A stretch of DNA of 64,000 nucleotides from Gammaproteobacteria bacterium (lineage in GTDB: Bacteria; Pseudomonadota; Gammaproteobacteria; GCA-001735895): the NCBI GenBank assembly GCA_050298595.1, contig JBNKUM010000094.1, positions 189,539 through 253,538 on the forward strand, in the 5' to 3' direction. The first letter of the stretch is position 1; each line of letters opens with the position of its first letter. The notes below the pieces were generated by a model. It saw nothing but the letters and a program-made list of their open reading frames with translations, was not told the DNA's origin and made no database searches. Positions 27,859 to 35,752 of this stretch are shown in pieces. A program made the position numbers and the translations under genes.

Positions 27859-29901
27859 ATGAAAAAAATGCTAATTTTACTGATGATTCTGTGGTGCTTG
27901 CCCGTCTGGGCTGAAGATCAGGTTCCCGGCGGTTTTATTGAAGCTGAACATCAGGGAAAGAAGATCCTGTTTCCATTATTGAAATCCCATTACCAGGTCG
28001 ATATCCAGGGCGACCTGGCCCAGGTGACCCTGGAGCAGGACTTCCAGAATCCGACCGGTATTCCACTCAATGCCAGCTACCTTTTTCCCTTGAATAAGGA
28101 CGCCGCCGTGCATGCCATGCACATGCAGGTAGCGGACGAACTGGTCGAAGCCAGGATTCGCCGCCGCGAAGAGGCCAGGAAAGCATTTGCCGAAGCTAAG
28201 GTGCAGGGTAAATCTGCCAGTTTACTTGAACAGCATCGCCCCAACATGTTTACCCAACAACTGGCCAATCTCATGCCGGATATTCCCATCCATATTACTT
28301 TGCAATATGTACAGCATATTAACCGGGTGGACAGCCACTATGAGCTAGTCTTGCCACTCATTGTGGGGCCCCGCTACCAACCGGAACAAACACAACAAAA
28401 GACCATCAAGCGAGTCGGCATGTGGCAGTTGGAGGCATTACCAGCCTATCCCTCAGTGGCTGGGCTGAACCTGCCCAAAGAAATTGAACAAGAGCGGGTG
28501 AGCATCGAGATTACTTTAGACGGTGGAATGCCTATCTCGGCTGTTTCCAGCCCGACTCACGGCATAGAGATCAAATCAGTGGATGAACAGCAAAGGCGCA
28601 TCAGTCTTAGCAACGGTCGCACCATCGATAACCGGGATTTTGAATTGCACTACCGTTTAGCTGGAGAACGGGTACAGGCTGGTTTGCTGACCCATGAAAA
28701 TGAGCGTGGCCGCTTCTTTAGCCTGTTACTGGAACCGCCAGCTATACCCCAGAGCGAGGCCATCACCCCGCGTGAGATGGTGTTTGTGCTAGACACCTCT
28801 GGCTCCATGTCCGGTGACCCGCTTAAGGCCAGCAAAGCTTTCATGCAGCAGGTGTTGCACCACTTGCGGCCCAGTGACCATTTTCGCATCATCGACTTCA
28901 GCAACAGTCCCAGGGAATTCCATGCCAACCCGTTGCCAGCAACCGCTGAGAATCTGCGTCTCGGTCAGGCTCATATCCAGGGCTTTAAAGCCGGTGGCGG
29001 CACCGAGATCGATAGTGCTATCAAGCAGGCCCTATCAGTACCAGCGATGCAAAACCATCTACGCATCGTAGTATTTCTGACCGACGGTTACATCGGTAAT
29101 GAGCACAGCGTACTACAACGCATCCAGTATTTGCGCGGTAATGCCCGTATCTATGCCCTGGGTGTCGGTACCGCTGTTAACCGCTACCTGTTGGATGAAA
29201 TGGTGCGGGCAGGTCAAGGCTTTGTGCGCTATATCGACCCTACCGAGGAAGTGGAAGGTGCCGCCCAGCGCTTTGCAGAGCGCTTGCGTACGCCGGTGCT
29301 GACCGATGTTAGTATCGACTGGGGCGATACCAGGGTCGAGCAGGTCACACCTGCGCAGCTGCCTGACCTCTTTACCGGCGATTCTCTGCGTCTGCTGGGC
29401 AAGATCAAGCAGGTGGGTCAGAAGCCCATCAAAATTCTCGGACGCATCAATGGGCAGCAGGCTACTTTGCCGCTCAAACTTCAGTTCGATGAGCAAGCAG
29501 CAAATCAGGGCCAGGCGATTCCCCTGATCTGGGCCAGAAGCCGGATTGCCGATCATATGCGAGAAATGACGTTGCCGAATGATCGCCGCTCTTCGGAACT
29601 GCCTGATAAGGCATTGAAAGAAAAGGTGACCCAATTGGGGTTGGATTATTCCCTGATGACGCGTTGGACCGCTTTCATCGCCGTGTCGCAGAAGATCTAC
29701 AATGAACAGCCCGCTGCGTCTAAGGATGTTTCGGTTCCCCTGCCCATGGTCAAGGGTGTCAGTCAAAAGGCCTATCCTAAACAAACTCAGCAGTTTCATG
29801 GCAGCTCAGCGCCGGAGGCTGAAGAGGGCCTGCTGTTGCTGATGTTGGTCTTGGCTGGGTTGTACTGGTGGCAGCGTCACCAGTATGGAGAAATGCTTTG
29901 A
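27859..29901 (+). CDS. VIT + vWA domain protein with PEP-CTERM-like sorting tail
   Basis: VIT N-terminus; DTSGSM and LTDG MIDAS; C-terminal SAPE-TM-basic tail. Confidence 0.9.
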   Translation: MKKMLILLMILWCLPVWAEDQVPGGFIEAEHQGKKILFPLLKSHYQVDIQGDLAQVTLEQDFQNPTGIPLNASYLFPLNKDAAVHAMHMQVADELVEARIRRREEARKAFAEAKVQGKSASLLEQHRPNMFTQQLANLMPDIPIHITLQYVQHINRVDSHYELVLPLIVGPRYQPEQTQQKTIKRVGMWQLEALPAYPSVAGLNLPKEIEQERVSIEITLDGGMPISAVSSPTHGIEIKSVDEQQRRISLSNGRTIDNRDFELHYRLAGERVQAGLLTHENERGRFFSLLLEPPAIPQSEAITPREMVFVLDTSGSMSGDPLKASKAFMQQVLHHLRPSDHFRIIDFSNSPREFHANPLPATAENLRLGQAHIQGFKAGGGTEIDSAIKQALSVPAMQNHLRIVVFLTDGYIGNEHSVLQRIQYLRGNARIYALGVGTAVNRYLLDEMVRAGQGFVRYIDPTEEVEGAAQRFAERLRTPVLTDVSIDWGDTRVEQVTPAQLPDLFTGDSLRLLGKIKQVGQKPIKILGRINGQQATLPLKLQFDEQAANQGQAIPLIWARSRIADHMREMTLPNDRRSSELPDKALKEKVTQLGLDYSLMTRWTAFIAVSQKIYNEQPAASKDVSVPLPMVKGVSQKAYPKQTQQFHGSSAPEAEEGLLLLMLVLAGLYWWQRHQYGEML

Positions 29902-30029
29902 GGGTTTACTAAACCGGGTCGAGAATAATGTAGGTCAGATACAAATATATAAATATTGCGTGTACAAGACTCCAGTTATGTAGGTGAAAAATGCATGTTG
30001 ATGAGGGGCACCCATTAAGGGGCAGGGGG

Positions 30030-30635
30030 TCAGGTTGAACCAGCGGCTATGACCCTGGATATCTGCATCATTTTATCCTTTTCTTTTTGATCCAGATTTG
30101 AGTAGATCATCAAAATCTCCTGAAGATCATCTGGAAAGTAGGCGCATAGGCCATCTAGCTCCACATGCTGTTCATCCATCCAGTTGCGGGATTTTTTTAG
30201 CTGCTTTTCGATTTTACGACATAATTTATCCTGAAGTTTCAGGAAGGGATTATCCAGGTGTTGCTTGAATTCTGAAGGTTTCAGCCCGGTAGTTTTTCTA
30301 AGTGCCGTGACTTCTGTTTTATTTAAAGATTTTACCAGTTGGCTCAGGTTCTGATGACGAATAGCCTGAAGATCGCGCTCACCAGACCCTATGCTACCTA
30401 AACCAAACTGAATCCAGCAGGGATTAATTTTAGTGACTTCGGCTATCTTCAATATGTCCTGAGAGGCGGGCATAGAGATGCCCTGCTCATAGTTACCCAA
30501 TCGGCTGACACTCCATTCAGGAGTCGCCTGTATAAATGCTGCGCGCGTCTTAAACCCCGCCATTTGCCGGGCCTGTTTAATTCGTGCACCGACCTGTTTT
30601 CTAAAATCATCAGTAGTAGTATTTTTTTTGGTCAT
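30030..30635 (-). CDS. XRE-family repressor with two HTH-like domains and no peptidase domain
   Basis: GARIKQAR...RLGNYEQG...WIQFG; second phage-repressor-like unit IRHQNL...RKIEKQL..NWMD. Confidence 0.8.
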   Translation of the reverse strand: MTKKNTTTDDFRKQVGARIKQARQMAGFKTRAAFIQATPEWSVSRLGNYEQGISMPASQDILKIAEVTKINPCWIQFGLGSIGSGERDLQAIRHQNLSQLVKSLNKTEVTALRKTTGLKPSEFKQHLDNPFLKLQDKLCRKIEKQLKKSRNWMDEQHVELDGLCAYFPDDLQEILMIYSNLDQKEKDKMMQISRVIAAGST

Positions 30636-30643
30636 AATAAATA

Positions 30644-30693
30644 ACAAGAATCTTGTAATTAGTGGTTGACAGCTTGTAATGCTTCATTATACT
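30644..30693 (+). promoter_or_regulatory. sigma70 promoter with adjacent and overlapping operator-like sites
   Basis: TTGACA(30666)-16 nt-TATACT(30688); palindrome ACAAG-AAT-CTTGT at 30644-30656; CTTGTAAT at 30652 and 30673. Confidence 0.7.
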
Positions 30694-30729
30694 ACGCAGC
30701 AATTCTTAATTCTGATTAATTTTAAAGGT

Positions 30730-30846
30730 ATGCATCATTTATTCATTTCAACGCAGAAGCAACTCAGTATCAGCCCCCAGGCTGTGCCTATGTGTGAGTG
30801 GATATGTATATCTTTTGATAATGAGTATAAGACAGTAGATTTTTGA
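30730..30846 (+). CDS. putative leader peptide 1 (38 aa, MHHLFISTQK...EYKTVDF)
   Basis: Short ORF just after the promoter, ending 11 nt before an attenuator hairpin. Confidence 0.5.
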   Translation: MHHLFISTQKQLSISPQAVPMCEWICISFDNEYKTVDF

Positions 30847-30857
30847 CTTTCTATTTT

Positions 30858-30927
30858 GGAAGGTCAATGGCACCTTCCGAGCAAAAATTAAAAACCCGGT
30901 TTGTGCTAAACAAGTCCGGGTTTTTTT
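30858..30927 (+). terminator. attenuator 1: protector hairpin plus intrinsic terminator with alternative antiterminator
   Basis: GGAAGGT/ACCTTCC hairpin; CCCGG...CCGGG-T7; GCACCTTCCG can pair with CGGTTTGTGC. Confidence 0.75.
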
Positions 30928-31297
30928 ATGCCGGGAGAAAGGGAAACCAGAGATACTACATAATTGACAAGGGGTGCTCTAGTTATTCACAACTAGAGGA
31001 ATATGAAATGTCTGTAAAAAACAAGACTATAGATAGAGAGCTCTATGGTTGTGTTAAAAGAAAATATATAGGGCCATGGTCAACATATTGGTTAGTGTTA
31101 ACAGACCCTGGGTCAAGCTAGATATGACACGGCCAGGAAGAAGGGAAAATAAATGTTGCTGTATTGCAGTAACGAAGGGGAAGGATCCAGATGGTCTGGT
31201 ATTCCCTTTGGGTAATCACCGACCCCATGAATATTACTGGTGAGTGACTGGCGTAATAAGCTATTGAATAAATTTAGGAGCAAAGTTTTTAGTGAAC

Positions 31298-31468
31298 ATG
31301 TTATCGATAAATAGAGCTGTCTGGCCGGTGATTTATGTATCGCCAACAGCCCAGTTGCGCCCTGAGTTTATGGGCAAGCAGCTCTGTATATCCGCTCTGT
31401 ATATAAGCAATGCGCCCAGGAACCTGGAACAGAATCATTTTGATTCAAAGGGTATTGGTAAAACGTAA
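31298..31468 (+). CDS. putative leader peptide 2 (56 aa, MLSINRAVWP...KGIGKT)
   Basis: AGGAG at 31276, in-frame GTG at 31292 and ATG at 31298; ends 17 nt before attenuator 2. Confidence 0.5.
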   Translation: MLSINRAVWPVIYVSPTAQLRPEFMGKQLCISALYISNAPRNLEQNHFDSKGIGKT

Positions 31469-31485
31469 TTCTCCATGAAAGTCCT

Positions 31486-31567
31486 TCGGAGGGTTGCAGT
31501 AATAACAAGCACCTCCGAGAGTTTAAAAAACCCCGGTTGTGCTTGAGAAGGCACCCGGGGTTTTTTT
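31486..31567 (+). terminator. attenuator 2 (same architecture as attenuator 1)
   Basis: TCGGAGG/CCTCCGA hairpin; CCCCGG...CCGGGG-T7; AAGCACCTCCG can pair with CGGTTGTGCTT. Confidence 0.78.
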
Positions 31568-31575
31568 ATGCCCCC

Positions 31576-31610
31576 ACACCGGCGTTCCCGGTGTTAATGA
31601 TCTTTGACAA
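31576..31610 (+). promoter_or_regulatory. rrn-type boxB-boxA antitermination signal
   Basis: Hairpin ACACCGG-CGTTC-CCGGTGT, then TGATCTTTGACAA (E. coli boxA is TGCTCTTTAACAA). Confidence 0.7.
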
Positions 31611-31731
31611 TTTGGAATCACGCAATGCCACCGGGAAACCGGTGGCCGGGCGAAACACTGAAGTAATCAGTCAGTTGTTTTGTCGCGGACATTTGTCTGC
31701 GATATGTCGAACCCATCGACCGCCCACAACT

Positions 31732-31806
31732 GCAGATATAGCTCAATGGGTAGAGCGACGGCTTTCCTGGCCGAGGACCCCAGTTCGATTCCGGGTATCT
31801 GCTCCA
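31732..31806 (+). tRNA. tRNA-Gly(TCC), atypical (U37, stem mismatches)
   Basis: Cloverleaf GCAGATA/TATCTGC, TTCGATT loop, U73, CCA. Confidence 0.8.
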
Positions 31807-32742
31807 GATTCGCCTGCTTGCAGGCAAATGCCTGGCATTCTTGTCCCGAGATGCCGGTGCAGCGACACATCGGGTTCCCATGATGGATAAGCCGGACATC
31901 CAGTGTAGTCGGCAGTGTCATCAGACCGCGTGAGGTCTTTACGATAATTGATGGCGACATCGAAAAAGGGGGAATGCCTGCATACCCTCGCCGGGGCAAC
32001 TCGGTCGATTTACGCAAGCCCAGTCCTCTACGTCTTCGGGTCGCTCGGAGATACTGATAAAGGGATGCATGGTAATTAAGGATGCCGGGCGGCTAAAACC
32101 GTGGTATTCGAATGTTTTCGTGACTGTTAACGCCATGGGTCAACATCTCGTTTCAGGAGGGATGAAGGGTGCACTTTTAGTCCGAGCCGTCAGGTTAGGG
32201 CGTTAGTGAAGTTTGAAGGGTGAGGGCAGTGGCCCAGATCCTGAAAAACGGTCAAGTAGCGGGATACGTGAAAGACATGGGGTGTGTGGCATTTTTGTCC
32301 TCAAAAGGGACTGGAACCACCGGAGTACGCACATCCTGGCAGGTTGTTGAAATAGCTCAACTGGTAGAGCAATTACCTCTTAAGTAATGGGTTTCAGGTT
32401 CAATTCCTGATTTCAAGGCAAACAGAAAATGGAAAGACGTACTCCAGCGTTAAGTGAAAGTGACCTAAGTCTCGGCAGCTTGCTGAACCGAGAAGGGTTT
32501 GAGGCCCCAAGCCAATAACCCGGGTACCGAATCGCATCAATGGGCCGGACAGCTCAGAGAGTAGATGAAGTGCCGAGTAGCTTAGCGGTATGTAGGTATT
32601 GCCACCTACTCAAACAAGGCGGTTACGAAGGTTTACCATGATGCCAAGAAAGGGGGCATGGTGGATAAGCTGGGAAACAGCGGGTGGAACCGACTGATAA
32701 TCCAGTGAAAGGATCTTCATAGAGGCTGTAATCTCAGGCCTT
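31807..32742 (+). ncRNA. large structured RNA, GOLLD-like, with embedded tRNA; boundaries approximate
   Basis: ~930 nt without a credible ORF; dense helices and GNRA loops (GGGCAACTC, GCTGGGAAACAGC); 3' end GGCTGTAATCTCAGGCC; tRNA-array context. Confidence 0.7.
32346..32418 (+). tRNA. tRNA-Lys(CTT), embedded, G1:G72 mismatch, no CCA
   Basis: Full D, anticodon and T arms; loop CTCTTAA. Confidence 0.8.
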
Positions 32743-32747
32743 ATTCT

Positions 32748-32823
32748 TCCCTGATGGCGTAAATGGTGAACGTAGCTGACTGTTAATCAGAAGTTTCGGG
32801 TTCGAATCCTGATCGGGGAGCCA
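32748..32823 (+). tRNA. tRNA-Asn(GTT)
   Basis: Cloverleaf, G73, CCA. Confidence 0.88.
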
Positions 32824-32829
32824 GATATT

Positions 32830-32913
32830 GGTTGTACTGAGCATTGGTGGGCTCACCTGGCTGTAACCCAGACTCCTCTGGACGTGATGGTTCGACTCCA
32901 TCTGCAACCACCA
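32830..32913 (+). tRNA. tRNA-Tyr(GTA)
   Basis: Cloverleaf with long variable region, C8, CCA. Confidence 0.85.
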
Positions 32914-33027
32914 GACAAAAAAATCATGAGAGCAAACTGCAGACACTCTCGATATCGATTGATAAAAGCGGCGTTGGCCGTGAATTATCCCCTGGCTAAT
33001 TCCTGAAACGGCGAGGGTTAGATTTAT

Positions 33028-33104
33028 GCGTCCGTAGTATAACTGGATATTACACCGGACTTTTAATCCGGCTAATGCGAGTTCAACTCTTGCCGGACGT
33101 ACCA
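33028..33104 (+). tRNA. tRNA-Lys(TTT)
   Basis: Cloverleaf, CCA. Confidence 0.88.
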
Positions 33105-33110
33105 TTTTAT

Positions 33111-33185
33111 TGCTCTGTAGCTCAATGGTAGAGCCCCCGGCTGATAACCGGAAGGTAGTGGGGTCAGTACCCACCAGAGCAACCA
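33111..33185 (+). tRNA. tRNA-Ile(GAT), non-canonical T-loop GTCAGTA
   Basis: Cloverleaf, CCA. Confidence 0.82.
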
Positions 33186-33260
33186 GTTTGTTATGTTCCC
33201 AGGCTCTGGACAAACGATATTCCTGCGAGCCAGGCTGCCCGACAATCGGGCTCAAATTAC

Positions 33261-33335
33261 ACTCCCGTGGATTAATGGTGAGATCGACAGACTTTCAATC
33301 TGTAGGTGAGGGTTCAATTCCCTTCGGGAGTACCA
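33261..33335 (+). tRNA. tRNA-Glu(TTC)
   Basis: Cloverleaf, CCA. Confidence 0.88.
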
Positions 33336-33340
33336 GATAT

Positions 33341-33414
33341 GGGGTCATAGTTAAGTTTGGGCGAGTGCCTGTTTTACAAGTTGATTATTGCCAGTTCGAT
33401 TCTGGCTGGCTCTA
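33341..33414 (+). pseudogene. degenerate tRNA, Ala-like acceptor (G3:U70) with TAC in the loop
   Basis: T arm and acceptor intact; D and anticodon stems broken; no CCA. Confidence 0.65.
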
Positions 33415-33553
33415 CTGAATGTGCCTACCTTGTTAGCTACAGGAAGGTCATCACACCACAGTCAGCACAGAGGGGGGCTGAATAGCAGCGAGGCTGCAAA
33501 ACGGTGCGGTAAAAGTCCGAAGTTTCGTAACACAACAGTAACGGAGGTATCCA

Positions 33554-33724
33554 ATGAATCACTATCGTAAATTTGAACGTGCAGTTCAGGATATGAATAT
33601 CCCGAAAAACCGCAAGACTGCCAACCCAGCTAATGCGAGTTGGTTCTTAAGGTCAGGAGTAGCCTACAACCGTGATCACGACAAGATCATGACGGCGATA
33701 TTCCATGCGCGCAATATTTCTTAA
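33554..33724 (+). CDS. small basic protein (56 aa, MNHYRKFERAVQDMNIP...WFLRSG...HARNIS)
   Basis: GGAGG RBS at 33543; fills the gap between two tRNAs; absent from the ORF track (<60 aa). Confidence 0.65.
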   Translation: MNHYRKFERAVQDMNIPKNRKTANPANASWFLRSGVAYNRDHDKIMTAIFHARNIS

Positions 33725-33728
33725 CAAT

Positions 33729-33806
33729 GGTGGGTATAGCTCAGTGGGTAAGAGCGCCGGGTTGTGACCTCGGAGGTCATCGGTTCAAGTCCGATTATTC
33801 ACCCCA
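33729..33806 (+). tRNA. tRNA-His(GTG)
   Basis: Cloverleaf, G-1:C73, CCA. Confidence 0.92.
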
Positions 33807-33872
33807 AACAAGGACTGCTTTAACTTCCCCCAGGGATTGGTGGATACAGACCCGGAGTTAAAGCACCAATTT

Positions 33873-33949
33873 ATCCTGATGGCCAAATTGAATAAGGCAG
33901 CGGTTTATGAAACTGGAGAATGCAGGTTTGACTCCTGCTCGGGATACCA
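33873..33949 (+). pseudogene. degenerate tRNA with ATG anticodon, probably ex-Arg(ACG)
   Basis: Acceptor, T stem and CCA retained; TTTGACT T-loop; mismatched anticodon stem. Confidence 0.6.
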
Positions 33950-33958
33950 AATCATTCT

Positions 33959-34035
33959 GCCGGGGTGATGGAATTGGCATACATGCTTGTCTTAGAAACA
34001 AGATTTTGCGGGTTCAAATCCCGCCCCCGGTACCA
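33959..34035 (+). tRNA. tRNA-Leu(TAG), short variable loop
   Basis: Cloverleaf, Leu-type D arm, A73, CCA. Confidence 0.88.
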
Positions 34036-34041
34036 GTTCAA

Positions 34042-34118
34042 TAGCGATTAACTCAGCTGGTTAGAGTGCCAACCTTACCAGTTGGATGTCGTGTGTTCGA
34101 ATCACACATCGCTAACCA
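34042..34118 (+). tRNA. tRNA-Val(TAC), C37
   Basis: Cloverleaf, CCA. Confidence 0.88.
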
Positions 34119-34119
34119 C

Positions 34120-34196
34120 GGCAAAGTGGCTGAAATGAAAATGGCGCAAACCTCATAAGATTGAAAATGCCGATTTAATCCCGGCCTTTGCCTCCA
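34120..34196 (+). pseudogene. degenerate tRNA-Met-like (CAT)
   Basis: Perfect acceptor and CCA; D-loop GG and T-loop degraded. Confidence 0.6.
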
Positions 34197-34202
34197 ATAT
34201 TT

Positions 34203-34277
34203 AGCGAGATAGACCTAATGTTAGAGCACCGGGTTCATTTCCCCGAAGACCCGGTTTAGATTCAAAATTTCGCTCCC
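34203..34277 (+). pseudogene. degenerate initiator-like tRNA (CAT)
   Basis: AGCGAGA/TTTCGCT acceptor; GGG/CCC anticodon stem; T stem destroyed. Confidence 0.55.
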
Positions 34278-34283
34278 GATTAT

Positions 34284-34361
34284 CTGGGTGTAGCTCAGTC
34301 TGGTCAGAGTTCTTGCCTTGGAAGCAAGATGCCGTTGGTTCGAATCCAACCACCCAGACCA
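34284..34361 (+). tRNA. tRNA-Pro(TGG)
   Basis: Cloverleaf, C1:G72, CCA. Confidence 0.92.
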
Positions 34362-34366
34362 AATAT

Positions 34367-34441
34367 GCGGATGTAGCTCAACGGTAGAGCATTGCCCTGT
34401 CAAGGCAGAGGTCGTGGGGTCAGTACCCATCATTCGCGCCA
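34367..34441 (+). tRNA. tRNA-Asp(GTC), non-canonical T-loop GTCAGTA
   Basis: Cloverleaf, G73, CCA. Confidence 0.85.
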
Positions 34442-34464
34442 GATTCTACGAAAGGAAAAGTCCA

Positions 34465-34590
34465 GTGAAACAAAGAAACCCTGTGCCCGTTAACAGGCCC
34501 TGGAAGGAAAGTGTTTATGAAAATAGTAGCAAGGCCAAACGTCAACAATCAAAGATGGCGTTTCAAAAAAGATTATGTGGACGTGGCTGA
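34465..34590 (+). CDS. small Lys/Arg-rich ORF (41 aa, MKQRNPV...) whose stop lies inside tRNA-Cys
   Basis: AAAGGA RBS at 34451, GTG start. Confidence 0.4.
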   Translation: MKQRNPVPVNRPWKESVYENSSKAKRQQSKMAFQKRLCGRG

Positions 34591-34652
34591 ATGATTATAG
34601 CGCCTGGTTGCAACCCAGGATTTTGCAGGTTTGATTCCTGTCGTCCACTCCA
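34577..34652 (+). tRNA. tRNA-Cys(GCA)
   Basis: Cloverleaf, U73, CCA; T-loop TTTGATT. Confidence 0.82.
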
Positions 34653-34701
34653 AATGTTAGGGCCTGCTAAGTCGTACAACCTTTTACGTTAATTTTTAAA
34701 T

Positions 34702-34775
34702 AGTCCTGTGGTGTAGCGGTAACACTCTTGTCTTTGACACAAGCATCGGTAGTTCGAATCTACCCGGGGCTGCCA
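34702..34775 (+). tRNA. tRNA-Gln(TTG)
   Basis: Cloverleaf, G73, CCA. Confidence 0.9.
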
Positions 34776-34797
34776 GATATTATCAGTTTGTCATACT

Positions 34798-34872
34798 GGG
34801 CCGTTAGCATATTGGTAGATGCAAACCCCTCATAAGGGTTTGAAGAAAGTTCGATTCTTTCACGGCCTACCA
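34798..34872 (+). tRNA. tRNA with CAT anticodon (Ile2-like or Met)
   Basis: Cloverleaf, GGGCC acceptor start, CCA. Confidence 0.85.
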
Positions 34873-34961
34873 CATAGCTTGTATCTCCCTGCGTATCAAT
34901 AGGGTCAGAGTGAATGAAGCTTACTTAAAACTTGATGCACTGTCATTGCATTTCAATTTCT

Positions 34962-35038
34962 ACCCCTGTAGCTTAATCGAATAGAGCACCTGGCTTCGAA
35001 CCAGGCGGTTGGGAGTTTGAGTCTCTCCAGGGGTGCCA
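34962..35038 (+). tRNA. tRNA-Arg(TCG)
   Basis: Cloverleaf, CCA; T-loop TTTGAGT. Confidence 0.82.
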
Positions 35039-35044
35039 ATAATT

Positions 35045-35120
35045 GTAGCGATAATTCAATTGGCAGAATGCCGGTCTCCAAAACCGGACGTTGGGGGTTC
35101 GAGGCCCTCTCGCTACGCCA
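35045..35120 (+). tRNA. tRNA-Trp(CCA)
   Basis: Cloverleaf, G73, CCA. Confidence 0.88.
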
Positions 35121-35179
35121 TGCATGTGATTCCAAATGGTCTTCTATTTTTTAACATGGACAAGATCTGGAGGTTAACT

Positions 35180-35752
35180 ATGGTCACATCCATTCTACAA
35201 CTGGATATTGCAGGAAACCCTGCAGGCTGGATCAATCATCGGCAAGCCATCTTGTTGGTGGCCTCAGATCGTGTGGTAGCCGGTCTGGGTGACCATGATT
35301 TTATATTTCAGGGTGGGGTAAACCGGGTTACCCGGTCACGATCATGCGTGATTGTCAGCTCCATTTTGCTGACTCGTGAGAGAGTAGTTGGGAATCGGTG
35401 GCAACATAACTTTGAAGCCCCGTTGACCAATAAAGGGCTGTTTGCTCGGGACCGGTATATGTGCCTGTACTGTGGACAAAGCCACGTTCCATCACAACTG
35501 ACAATGGATCATGTGATGCCGAAATCTCGAGGAGGTGCAGATACCTGGGTAAATGCAGCGACAGCCTGTCGCAAGTGTAATCATGCCAAAGGTAATCGAA
35601 CCCCGGAAGAATGGGGGCACCATCTGTTGGCGGTGCCATTTGCACCGAACTGGGCTGAATACCTGTACCTGAAAAACACGCGACGCATCATTGCGGATCA
35701 AATGGCTTTTTTAAAAAGTCGATTTCGTAAGGACAGTCCGCTGCTGGTCTGA
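35180..35752 (+). CDS. HNH endonuclease (McrA-like)
   Basis: RDRYMCLYCG...TMDHVMPKSRGG..W.N...C..CN..K; GGAGG RBS at 35169. Confidence 0.92.
   Translation: MVTSILQLDIAGNPAGWINHRQAILLVASDRVVAGLGDHDFIFQGGVNRVTRSRSCVIVSSILLTRERVVGNRWQHNFEAPLTNKGLFARDRYMCLYCGQSHVPSQLTMDHVMPKSRGGADTWVNAATACRKCNHAKGNRTPEEWGHHLLAVPFAPNWAEYLYLKNTRRIIADQMAFLKSRFRKDSPLLV

What the first reader, a model, noticed from the sequence alone, without database searches (positions are those of the whole stretch)
30730..31567. Two tandem leader-peptide attenuators gate the tRNA array
Seen twice: short ORF, then hairpin 1:2, then terminator 3:4 with T7. In both copies the 3' arm of the first hairpin can instead pair with the terminator's 5' arm: GCACCTTCCG/CGGTTTGTGC (7/10) and AAGCACCTCCG/CGGTTGTGCTT (9/11). 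Loops differ but the alternative pairing is kept. The leaders have no single-amino-acid run; leader 2 uses all 20 amino acids and leader 1 uses 18, with 3 and 2 ATA codons respectively. Segment 1 starts 11-17 nt after the stop, unlike biosynthetic attenuators. Inference: general sensors of ribosome stalling, slow termination or readthrough, wired in series in front of stable-RNA genes.
Basis: partly seen in the sequence, partly recalled or inferred. Interest (0 to 1): 0.85.

Follow-up and report, generated by a model that had tools for sequence, protein, structure and literature searches.

The report
Tandem translation-sensing attenuators before tRNA array
Two copies of a conserved RNA switch, each a short reading frame that ends inside a chain of competing hairpins followed by a transcription stop, sit in front of a block of spare tRNA genes and probably let it be made only when ribosomes lag behind.

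Summary
They are two members of a conserved family. A covariance model built only from 33 loci of other Gammaproteobacteria finds exactly these two sites in the 64-kb window (52.5 and 52.0 bits).

The anatomy is therefore a chain: A:B, B:C, C:D (antiterminator), D:E (terminator). All four pairings are locus-specific in 24 non-redundant modules (permutation p<=0.0002 each; three control pairings p=0.23-0.31).

Most likely mechanism, inferred and not shown: a ribosome at the stop codon masks A, so B:C and the terminator form. A late, stalled or absent ribosome allows A:B and C:D, and transcription reads through.

An rrn-type boxA follows terminator 2. An XRE-type HTH gene is divergent from the unit. 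In relatives the same cassette heads tRNA arrays, GOLLD RNA, RtcB and ArfB.

The ATA-codon and all-20-amino-acid points are not special. Ribosome-binding signals for the window's own leaders are weak. I found no published account.

The parts
30030..30635 (-). XRE-type helix-turn-helix gene, divergent from the leader (201 aa from ATG 30635)
   Evidence: Pfam HTH_31/HTH_3, below cut-off. NCBIfam gives a weak DicA-like N-terminus. Relatives of this protein mark 51 loci.
30644..30656 (.). Perfect 13-nt palindrome, candidate operator of the HTH protein
   Evidence: Read. Similar CAAG..CTTG repeats flank the promoter in relatives. Binding is inferred.
30666..30693 (+). Sigma-70-type promoter, 11 of 12 consensus positions
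   Evidence: Invariant hexamers in 4 genomes.
30730..30846 (+). Leader ORF 1 (38 codons, TGA)
   Evidence: Open and without indels in 4 genomes. 14 of 17 variable codons change the residue. No Shine-Dalgarno by the rule.
30843..30853 (+). Module 1 segment A (includes the stop codon)
   Evidence: Pairs with 30857-30867 in the fold and in the nascent-chain fold.
30855..30867 (+).
30870..30881 (+).
30890..30927 (+). Module 1 terminator D:E with T7
   Evidence: Model R1 match 30834-30932, 52.0 bits.
31292..31468 (+). Leader ORF 2 (58 codons from GTG, 56 from ATG 31298; TAA)
   Evidence: Open and without indels in 4 genomes. 12 of 17 variable codons change the residue. One relative ends G-M-T-stop like the wider family.
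31466..31474 (+). Module 2 segment A (includes the stop codon)
   Evidence: free nascent-chain fold.
31486..31496 (+). Module 2 segment B
31506..31520 (+). Module 2 segment C
   Evidence: (I3).
31525..31567 (+). Module 2 terminator D:E with T7
   Evidence: Model R1 match 31464-31572, 52.5 bits.
31576..31594 (+). Hairpin just before the boxA-like element (boxB-like position)
   Evidence: Read. 31568-31731 is only 7.3% variable in 4 genomes.
31598..31610 (+). rrn-type boxA-like element (2 mismatches to the 13-mer)
   Evidence: E. coli rrn boxA sequence taken from Table 1 of PMC2724277.
31732..35120 (+). Regulated cargo: 18-20 tRNA genes with a GOLLD RNA (32279-32740) inside
35153..35752 (+). HNH endonuclease gene at the end of the array
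   Evidence: Pfam HNH_5, 56.2 bits.

Best explanation
The stretch is the control region of an accessory tRNA/GOLLD operon. One strong promoter (30666-30693) drives it, probably repressed by the divergent HTH protein.

The transcript passes two ribosome-dependent transcription attenuators in series. Then comes an rrn-type boxA, which would make RNA polymerase resistant to Rho over the long untranslated array.

Each attenuator is a chain of five segments:
- A overlaps the leader ORF's stop codon.
- B can pair with A or with C.
- C can pair with B or with D.
- D:E is the terminator.

If a ribosome reaches the stop codon in step with RNA polymerase, it covers A. B then pairs with C, D pairs with E, and transcription stops. 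If the ribosome is late, stalled anywhere in the 38-58 codon frame, or absent, A pairs with B. C is then free to capture D, the terminator cannot form, and the array is transcribed.

The cassette thus reports general translation capacity rather than one amino acid. Two in series sharpen the response.

Shown: the anatomy, membership in a conserved family, locus-specific complementarity of all four pairings, and conservation of the frame but not of the peptide. Inferred: translation of the leaders, the polarity, the roles of the HTH protein and boxA.
For: (1) Family membership. Model R1, built from 33 loci outside the window's genus, hits only the two modules on the + strand of the window (52.5 and 52.0 bits, full length; next unrelated hit 12.2 bits).

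(2) Conserved context. Relatives of the HTH protein mark 51 loci. Of these, 29 have tRNAs on the divergent strand. 40 of 51 carry the terminator motif 200-1000 nt from the HTH start.

(3) Alignment-free test on 24 modules under 75% identical. Duplex energy, own locus against other loci:
- A:B -12.35 vs -7.92
- B:C -17.37 vs -10.00
- C:D -15.85 vs -11.04
- D:E -17.41 vs -11.45
Each gives p<=0.0002 in 5000 permutations. Control pairings A:D, B:E and A:E give p=0.23-0.31. A was defined only by the stop codon, and C and D only by their other partners.

(4) MAFFT alignment of 35 modules, not fitted to any structure.
- B:C + D:E: 89.6% of cells paired vs 78.8% shuffled; 16 of 21 pairs change on both sides (0 of 500 shuffles reach this).
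- A:B + C:D: 78.9% vs 73.4% (0 of 500); partners slid by 1-3 columns give 39-49%. In the A:B helix 8 of 10 pairs change on both sides.

(5) Nascent chain up to D. With no mask, D is engaged in 24 of 24 modules. With 14 nt masked from the stop codon, D is free in 16 of 24.

(6) Leader frames.
- An ORF of at least 20 codons ends just before A in all 41 modules tabulated.
- 15 of 24 have a Shine-Dalgarno-preceded start, vs 9% of start triplets nearby.
- In the genus both frames have 0 indel columns, against 57 of 400 between the modules. Substitutions are spread over codon positions (6/8/9 and 6/7/10).

(7) No room for an internal promoter. There is no promoter-like site in 31568-31731. In relatives the first tRNA lies 25-117 nt behind the T-run in 5 loci.

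(8) BoxA-like element (3 or fewer mismatches) follows the last terminator in 17 of 23 loci with a tRNA within 700 nt, vs 3 of 16 without.

(9) Cargo in relatives fits a translation-stress role: RtcB (434 bits), ArfB (156.9 bits, cut-off 100), tRNA arrays, GOLLD. The Anabaena tRNA array, its HNH gene and rtcB are induced by translational stress (PMC8421152, passages read).

(10) Tandem modules before tRNAs recur in another family's genome (G026: two loci) and in L045.
Against: - There is no experimental datum. RNA-library contigs show no ends or levels.
- The window's own leaders have poor ribosome-binding signals. Leader 1 has only AGG one base before ATG, and that is lost in 3 relatives. Leader 2 has AGGAG 13 nt before GTG. 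Both fail the rule.
- Under the proposed polarity an untranslated leader 1 would make terminator 1 leaky.
- By minimum free energy the mask does not free D in either window module; they are 2 of the 8 non-switchers.
- The full-length optimum of module 1 has A:B and the terminator together. Antitermination would therefore have to be kinetic.
- The 3' part of C:D shows no pair changed on both sides (0 of 5). The count of pairs with double changes for A:B + C:D is not beyond shuffles (96 of 500).
- Related loci are not independent.
- The conserved [G/D]-M-[T/S/N]-stop ending of most family leaders is unexplained. In the window it is changed to G-K-T.
Confidence: 0.65

Rival explanations
1. The two terminators are constitutive, leaky insulators. 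The real switch is the HTH repressor at the promoter. The competing helices only tune terminator strength and no ribosome is involved.
For: The window leaders lack good Shine-Dalgarno sequences. The Anabaena array is controlled through promoter repeats (PMC8421152). A palindrome sits beside the promoter. The terminator is the thermodynamic optimum.
Against: It does not explain why an open frame ends exactly in segment A in all 41 modules tabulated. It does not explain why frames stay free of indels while neighbouring DNA does not. It does not explain why four successive mutually exclusive helices co-vary.
Confidence: 0.15
2. A trans-acting factor decides between terminator and antiterminator. 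Candidates are a protein, a tRNA, or a 30S subunit binding segment B, which is Shine-Dalgarno-like (GGAGG or GGAAGG), or binding the B:C hairpin.
For: B is purine-rich and Shine-Dalgarno-like in most loci, and A and C resemble the anti-Shine-Dalgarno sequence. Cargo includes RNA-repair and ribosome-rescue genes.
Against: At least four loci keep the chain with quite different B sequences (L040, L047, L051, L067). What is conserved is therefore pairing, not a binding sequence. No Rfam family matches at its cut-off. The conserved leader frame is left unexplained.
Confidence: 0.12
3. The short ORFs are ordinary small genes with their own terminators (remnants of a mobile element's early region). 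The tRNA array is driven by its own promoter.
For: The island is bounded by a repressor-like gene and an HNH gene. Tandem promoter-ORF-terminator units are common in phages.
Against: The peptides are not conserved: 14 of 17 and 12 of 17 variable codons change the residue, and there is no Pfam hit. No promoter-like site lies downstream of 31567. The boxA and the region after the terminator are more conserved than the ORFs. There was no megablast match among 50,697 phage records.
Confidence: 0.05

Closest known systems
Leader-peptide transcription attenuators of amino-acid operons (trp, his, leu, thr, ilv, pheA)
   Same: A promoter-proximal short frame, successive mutually exclusive hairpins, an intrinsic terminator, and ribosome position as the input. 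Sub-threshold Rfam resemblance: His_leader 28.5 and 17.8 bits, Phe and Thr leaders about 16-18 bits.
   Different: No run of regulatory codons. Frames of 38-58 codons rather than about 14-32 (recalled). Five segments, not four. The stop codon lies in an extra segment A, so the untranslated state is predicted to read through rather than super-attenuate. The cargo is stable RNA. The scores are below Rfam cut-offs (49-55 bits), so these are not members of those families.
Leader-ORF attenuators that sense translation inhibition in general (e.g. B. subtilis vmlR, PMC9226507; E. coli toiL-topAI uORF, PMC12121999; both seen only as search listings and abstracts)
   Same: A short upstream frame reports ribosome stalling of any cause and opens downstream expression.
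   Different: Those control resistance or toxin-antitoxin genes. Here the cargo is tRNAs, GOLLD, RtcB and ArfB. The segment-A design and the following boxA are not described there, as far as I read.
[quoted passage not shown]
   Same: A horizontally spread supernumerary tRNA array with an adjacent HNH gene. Co-regulation with rtcB. Silent until translation is impaired.
   Different: Regulation there is assigned to direct repeats in the promoter. The words attenuat*, terminator and Gammaproteobacteria do not occur in its main text. Its supplements were not seen.
rrn operon antitermination (boxB-boxA-boxC leader; NusB/NusE)
   Same: The 13-mer behind the terminator matches the E. coli rrn boxA (Table 1 of PMC2724277). 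It has 0-1 mismatch in 9 loci outside the window's genus and 2 in the window. A hairpin precedes it.
   Different: It lies downstream of an attenuator and in front of tRNA/GOLLD genes, not rRNA. Binding of Nus factors is untested.
Earlier notes of this scan on codon-matched leader-peptide attenuators before phage tRNA arrays
   Same: A short frame plus a switchable terminator in front of tRNA blocks. Those agents also found no published account.
   Different: Here the leaders are not matched to the array's amino acids: 0.74 and 0.77 covered vs 0.754 in the proteome. The host is a chromosome, not a phage. The cassette includes an HTH gene, segment A and boxA.

Membership tests
Ribosome-mediated (leader-ORF) transcription attenuator | Short ORF between the promoter and the terminator, with translation signals | tested here: inconclusive
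   The ORFs are present, open and free of indels in 4 genomes. Shine-Dalgarno is weak or absent for the window's leaders. It is present in 15 of 24 family leaders.
Ribosome-mediated (leader-ORF) transcription attenuator | Intrinsic terminator ahead of the regulated genes | tested here: met
   Two G+C stems, each followed by T7. D:E co-varies.
Ribosome-mediated (leader-ORF) transcription attenuator | Antiterminator pairing that excludes the terminator, kept by compensatory change | tested here: met
   C:D own locus vs other loci -15.85 vs -11.04, p<=0.0002. The 5' helix has 4 of 7 pairs changed on both sides; the 3' helix 0 of 5.
Ribosome-mediated (leader-ORF) transcription attenuator | ORF placed so that ribosome position selects the fold | tested here: met
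   The stop codon lies in or within 2 nt of the 5' arm of A:B in 19 of 24 modules, both window modules included.
Ribosome-mediated (leader-ORF) transcription attenuator | Readthrough depends on leader translation | not testable with these tools
   Needs reporters, Term-seq or coupled in vitro transcription-translation.
Amino-acid-specific attenuators (Rfam His, Thr, Phe, Leu, Trp leaders) | Run of cognate codons, and a score above the family cut-off | tested here: not met
   No run of one residue. The best score is 28.5 bits against a cut-off of 49.
rrn-type boxA antitermination site | BoxA 13-mer in the transcript, downstream of the promoter and ahead of untranslated genes | tested here: met
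   31598-31610 with 2 mismatches. 17 of 23 tRNA-led loci have 3 or fewer mismatches, vs about 5 in shuffles. Reference sequence.
rrn-type boxA antitermination site | NusB/NusE binding and resistance to Rho | not testable with these tools
   -
L-array (long horizontally acquired tRNA array) | Dense supernumerary tRNA genes with an adjacent HNH gene | tested here: met
   18 ARAGORN genes in 3.4 kb. 15 of 18 anticodons also occur elsewhere in the genome. HNH at 35153-35752. Present in 4 of 14 genomes of the genus, the window's own included.
GOLLD RNA (RF02032) | Score above Rfam's gathering score | tested here: met
   166.7 bits vs 150.

The most novel reading that the evidence does not exclude
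The cassette (HTH repressor, leader frame, five-segment attenuator, optional boxA) is a portable sensor of general translation capacity. It defines a horizontally spread translational-stress regulon in sulfur-oxidising and methane-oxidising Gammaproteobacteria. That regulon comprises spare tRNAs, the giant GOLLD RNA, the RNA ligase RtcB, the ribosome-rescue factor ArfB, an HNH nuclease and an SPFH protein. This would place GOLLD functionally in the response to damaged or depleted translation machinery. It would also give the mechanism by which silent tRNA arrays are switched on.
Probability: 0.45. Interest if true: 0.9.

Novelty: new variant of a known kind. Interest (0 to 1): 0.8.

Why it matters
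Accessory tRNA arrays are widespread and mostly silent, and how they are switched on is largely unknown. The one studied case (Anabaena, PMC8421152) shows induction by translational stress but names no sensor.

A conserved attenuator whose input is simply whether a ribosome arrives on time would be such a sensor. It is directly testable with reporters.

It also links GOLLD, a giant RNA of unknown function, and the repair and rescue genes rtcB and arfB to one regulatory logic. And it adds a five-segment design, 'untranslated means on', to the textbook set of attenuators.

Tried and rejected
- Megablast of 29500-33500 against phage records: no match.
- The module as a dispersed genomic repeat: only the two copies in the own genome. 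Other R1 hits there are 31.4 bits or less. That is no better than the reverse strand of terminator 2 (32.8 bits), so I take them for ordinary terminators.
- In 151 genomes of the class, 57 have hits at E<=1e-4. Only 5 genomes reach 45 bits (G026, G000, G210, G177, G228). I read the rest as generic terminators (inference).
- Rfam: no family at its gathering score on the leaders. Sub-threshold ncr1015 (41.5 vs 60 bits) and His_leader were not pursued.
- BoxA in the own genome's rrn leader: no 16S is assembled. The 1-mismatch pattern gave 10 hits vs 6 for the control, which is uninformative. In G028 the single exact 12-mer lies about 400 nt behind the 16S 3' end, inside the rrn operon. In G041 and G044 it is not near a detected 16S.
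- RNA evidence: four metatranscriptome runs hold only contigs of relatives. Parts of the leader without cover mean nothing, and no ends or levels can be read.
- Rare-codon design: rejected. ATA is 14.1 per 1000; leader adaptation sits at the 0.45 and 0.36 quantile.
- 'All 20 amino acids' as design: the tails are 0.087 and 0.020 against proteome windows but 0.23 and 0.14 against random open frames. Across the 24 frames tested, 20 are above the random mean, a weak tendency only.
- Leader matched to the array's amino acids: rejected.
- The middle ORF 31008-31121: frame broken by indels in relatives.
- A second frame starting at the ATG in the B:C loop: that ATG is present in only about half of the loci by eye. 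It is better explained by C:D pairing.
- Earlier notes of this scan, by place and by sequence: nothing.
- Rows dropped before the statistics:
  - Six extra T-run sites (L040_1, L045_1, L046_1, L060_0, L063_1, L065_0) were set aside by eye. L045_1 is in fact a family-type second module (36.2 bits).
  - L061 was dropped because no terminator hairpin met my rule.
  - The six modules of the window's three close relatives (L022-L024) went into neither the alignments (A4, A5) nor the non-redundant set.
Full report
**What is at the coordinates**

The window is chromosomal. A VIT/vWA-type ORF lies before the island and an aldo-keto-reductase-like ORF after it (read from the translations; no domain search was run on either).

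The island runs from an XRE-type helix-turn-helix gene on the minus strand (30030-30635) to an HNH endonuclease gene (35153-35752). Between them lie, in order:
- a 13-nt perfect palindrome (30644-30656);
- the only strong sigma-70-like promoter of the region (30666-30693, 11 of 12 positions);
- the two modules of the finding;
- 164 nt of highly conserved non-coding sequence;
- 18 ARAGORN tRNA genes (20 by Rfam) from 31732 to 35120, with a GOLLD RNA (32279-32740, 166.7 bits vs a cut-off of 150) that encloses tRNA-Lys(CTT).

**Checking the observation**

- The folds are far better than shuffles (z -4.3 to -5.2, 0 of 200).
- The modules are paralogues of each other.
- They occur nowhere else in the 5.49-Mb genome.

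**Relatives**

Three other genomes of the genus carry the whole region at 87-92% identity. A fourth genome (G012, locus L013) has a single, more diverged module between a homologous HTH gene and a short tRNA array.

Using the HTH protein as a handle, a scan of one genome per species returned 51 loci. They are mostly uncultured Gammaproteobacteria labelled Sedimenticola, Thiodiazotropha, Ectothiorhodospiraceae, Thioalkalispiraceae, Methylococcaceae and Chromatiales.
- In 29 of 51, tRNA genes lie on the divergent strand, up to 29 in a row.
- In 40 of 51, the same G-rich stem plus T-run lies 200-1000 nt from the HTH start.

The shared layout, read, is:
- CAAG..CTTG repeats around a promoter;
- a frame of usually 30-62 codons;
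- a stop codon directly followed by a pyrimidine segment (A);
- a purine segment (B);
- a second pyrimidine segment (C);
- a terminator (D:E);
- where tRNAs follow, a match to the rrn boxA.

**The window's modules are members of this family**

A covariance model built from 33 modules, none from the window's genus, finds both window modules full-length at 52.5 and 52.0 bits (E about 1e-13). It finds nothing else on that strand of the window. The reverse strand of the two palindromic terminators scores 32.8 and 16.6 bits, and the next hit 12.2 bits.

**The chain of pairings**

Module 1:
- A, 30843-30853, pairs with 30857-30867 (first fold).
- B:C is 30855-30865 with 30870-30881.
- C:D is 30870-30879 with 30897-30906.
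- D:E is 30890-30925.

Module 2:
- A, 31466-31474, pairs with 31488-31496.
- B:C is 31486-31495 with 31508-31520.
- C:D is 31506-31517 with 31534-31545.
- D:E is 31525-31566.

Two independent tests support all four helices across the family.

(i) An alignment-free test on 24 modules under 75% identical. A is taken as the 17 nt from the stop codon. B and C come from the B:C fold, and D and E from the terminator fold. Each segment pairs better with its own locus's partner than with other loci's partner:

| Pairing | Own locus (kcal/mol) | Other loci (kcal/mol) |
|---|---|---|
| A:B | -12.35 | -7.92 |
| B:C | -17.37 | -10.00 |
| C:D | -15.85 | -11.04 |
| D:E | -17.41 | -11.45 |

Each gives p<=0.0002. 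The non-chain combinations A:D, B:E and A:E show nothing (p=0.23-0.31).

(ii) A plain MAFFT alignment of 35 modules.
- The 'terminated' structure (B:C + D:E) has 89.6% of cells paired vs 78.8% in shuffles. 16 of 21 pairs change on both sides (0 of 500 shuffles).
- The 'read-through' structure (A:B + C:D) has 78.9% vs 73.4% (0 of 500). Slid partners give 39-49%. In A:B, 8 of 10 pairs change on both sides, and in the 5' half of C:D, 4 of 7.
- The 3' half of C:D varies on one side only (0 of 5). The pair-count measure is not beyond shuffles (96 of 500).

C:D is thus the least well supported helix, but it is supported. Several loci (L040, L047, L051, L067) keep the chain with entirely different sequences.

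**The frames**

- In all 41 modules tabulated, an ORF of at least 20 codons ends just before A.
- In 19 of 24 non-redundant modules the A:B helix starts within the stop codon or no more than 2 nt after it.
- The peptide bodies are not alike. Most family members end [G/D]-M-[T/S/N]-stop. One relative of the window keeps G-M-T-stop, while the window has G-K-T-stop.
- Within the genus both frames have no indel column, against 57 of 400 columns between the modules.
- Variable sites are spread over the three codon positions (6/8/9 and 6/7/10). 14 of 17 and 12 of 17 variable codons change the residue.
- The structured parts (7-9% variable) are better kept than the frames (14-20%).

This is the pattern of a frame whose translation matters, not its product.

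Against this, translation signals are weak in the window itself. Leader 1 has no Shine-Dalgarno. Leader 2 has AGGAG 13 nt before GTG 31292. In the family, 15 of 24 leaders have one, vs 9% of start triplets nearby.

**How it most likely works (inferred)**

Folding the nascent chain up to D gives A:B plus C:D when nothing is masked; D is engaged in 24 of 24. Masking 14 nt from the stop codon, as a terminating ribosome would, gives B:C with D free in 16 of 24.
- A ribosome that reaches the stop in step with RNA polymerase would therefore favour termination.
- A late, stalled or missing ribosome would favour readthrough.

Both window modules are among the 8 that do not switch by minimum free energy. 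The full-length optimum of module 1 holds A:B and the terminator together. For the window the argument therefore rests on the order of synthesis: B:C forms before D exists, and C:D forms before E exists. This is also how classical attenuators are understood (recalled).

The polarity differs from trp. Here no translation is predicted to mean 'on'.

Two modules in series would multiply the off-state and demand sustained slowness.

**What follows the terminator**

31568-31731 is only 7.3% variable. It holds a hairpin (31576-31594) and at 31598-31610 a 13-mer with 2 mismatches to the E. coli rrn boxA. I took that sequence from Table 1 of PMC2724277.

A match with 3 or fewer mismatches follows the last terminator in 17 of 23 loci where a tRNA lies within 700 nt, and in 3 of 16 others. 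One of those three is followed by GOLLD. Shuffles average about 5 mismatches.

I infer rrn-type protection of the long untranslated transcript from Rho. No promoter-like site lies between terminator 2 and tRNA-Gly. In five relatives the first tRNA is 25-117 nt behind the T-run. The array must therefore be reached by readthrough.

**Cargo in relatives**

Where tRNAs do not follow directly, the cassette heads protein genes:
- RtcB: Pfam 434 bits for the L047 representative. Six more loci are alike by their printed N-termini.
- A 140-150-aa RF-1-domain protein named ArfB by NCBIfam: 156.9 bits vs a cut-off of 100 for the L026 representative. Six more are alike by N-terminus.
- A recurrent 317-aa protein with no family.
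- HNH and SPFH proteins.

GOLLD is in the arrays of L028 and L032 as well.

These are all tools for damaged translation, which fits a sensor of translation capacity. It also parallels the Anabaena L-array, whose HNH neighbour and rtcB are co-induced by translational stress (PMC8421152, passages read).

The window's array is supernumerary: 15 of its 18 anticodons also occur elsewhere in the genome.

**Tandem design elsewhere**

Two modules in series precede tRNAs in two loci of a genome from another family:
- G026 locus L102: 46.2 and 50.2 bits, then 11 tRNAs starting with Gly-TCC as in the window.
- G026 locus L103: 59.3 and 36.2 bits.

The same is seen in L045 (57.0 and 36.2 bits).

- ATA is a common codon here (14.1 per 1000).
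- Leader codon adaptation is ordinary (quantiles 0.45 and 0.36).
- 18 and 20 amino-acid types are unusual for real proteins (tails 0.087 and 0.020) but not for random open frames (0.23 and 0.14). 20 of the 24 frames tested lie above the random mean, a weak trend.
- The leaders are not enriched in the amino acids served by the array (0.74 and 0.77 vs 0.754).

**Is it known?**

- Rfam has no family for the modules.
- Full-text searches found no paper holding at least three of the six terms rtcB, arfB, tRNA array, GOLLD, leader peptide and attenuator (0 papers).
- The tRNA-array papers listed each show zero occurrences of transcription attenuation, upstream ORF and antitermination.
- The Anabaena paper has no occurrence of attenuat* or terminator. 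Its supplements were not seen.
- Earlier AI notes of this scan describe codon-matched leader attenuators before phage tRNA arrays, and likewise found no publication. They are leads, not evidence. I tested the codon-matching idea here and it is not met.

I therefore class this as a new variant of a known kind: ribosome-mediated attenuation.

**Expression data**

Contigs from four metatranscriptome runs of four studies cover the stretch from about 31834-31914 to 32400, which includes the start of the GOLLD match. They are mostly under 99% alike, so they come from relatives. One run also has short contigs over 30978-31095, 31146-31298 and 31553-31814. Being contigs, they show neither ends nor levels. 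I use them only to say that such RNA libraries contain this locus's relatives.

Noticed in passing
window 32279-32740 (and 31807-32278): A GOLLD RNA (166.7 bits) lies inside the tRNA array and encloses tRNA-Lys(CTT). The 470 nt between tRNA-Gly and the start of the model may be its variable 5' half. RNA-library contigs of four studies cover about 31834-31914 to 32400. GOLLD is also in the arrays of L028 and L032.
   Followed up: partly
window 33554-33724 (+): A 56-codon ORF is embedded in the array, with look-alike small ORFs in L025, L048 and L065 (shared 'W-F/L-x-R/G-N/K-G' stretch by eye). No Pfam or NCBIfam hit.
   Followed up: partly
window 33873-33949; 33341-33414; 34120-34193: A tRNA-His with anticodon ATG beside a normal His(GTG). 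Two further tRNA-like Rfam hits (33.3 and 40 bits) that ARAGORN does not call.
   Followed up: no
family leaders; window 31457-31468: Most family leader frames end [G/D]-M-[T/S/N]-stop, with C or T after the stop codon. All three stop codons are used. The role is unknown; it may affect dwell time at the stop. The window has G-K-T, and one close relative has G-M-T.
   Followed up: partly
segments A, B, C of most loci: B is Shine-Dalgarno-like (GGAGG or GGAAGG). A and C resemble the anti-Shine-Dalgarno sequence. In about half of the loci an ATG lies 9-10 nt behind B, in the B:C loop.
   Followed up: partly
L062 3615-3846 (-): A HEARO RNA (117.9 bits, cut-off 83) sits between the HTH gene and the leader frame of a 29-tRNA array.
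   Followed up: no
L026, L029, L030, L033, L038, L039, L041, L048, L052, L057, L067, L069: A recurrent protein of about 317 aa with no Pfam or NCBIfam family (N-terminus '..LLDEIIACLPK.RT.F.Y') stands beside ArfB or RtcB under the same cassette. A recurrent ORF of about 73 aa ('NPLH..PL..KGG.H') reminded me of ArfA (recalled, no hit).
   Followed up: partly
window 30977-30998 and 31002-31016: An 8-bp inverted repeat lies between the two modules, followed by GAGGAA and an invariant 4-codon ORF. It is conserved in all 4 genomes, while the flanks carry indels.
   Followed up: no
G000:C119:11462-11794 (-): A second, partial copy of the HTH protein's C-terminal half in the same genome (38% identity, one internal TAA).
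   Followed up: no
window 30825-30931: A sub-threshold match to Bacillus sRNA ncr1015 (41.5 bits, cut-off 60), with sequence-level likeness over the end of leader 1. Probably chance plus the shared hairpin-terminator shape.
   Followed up: no
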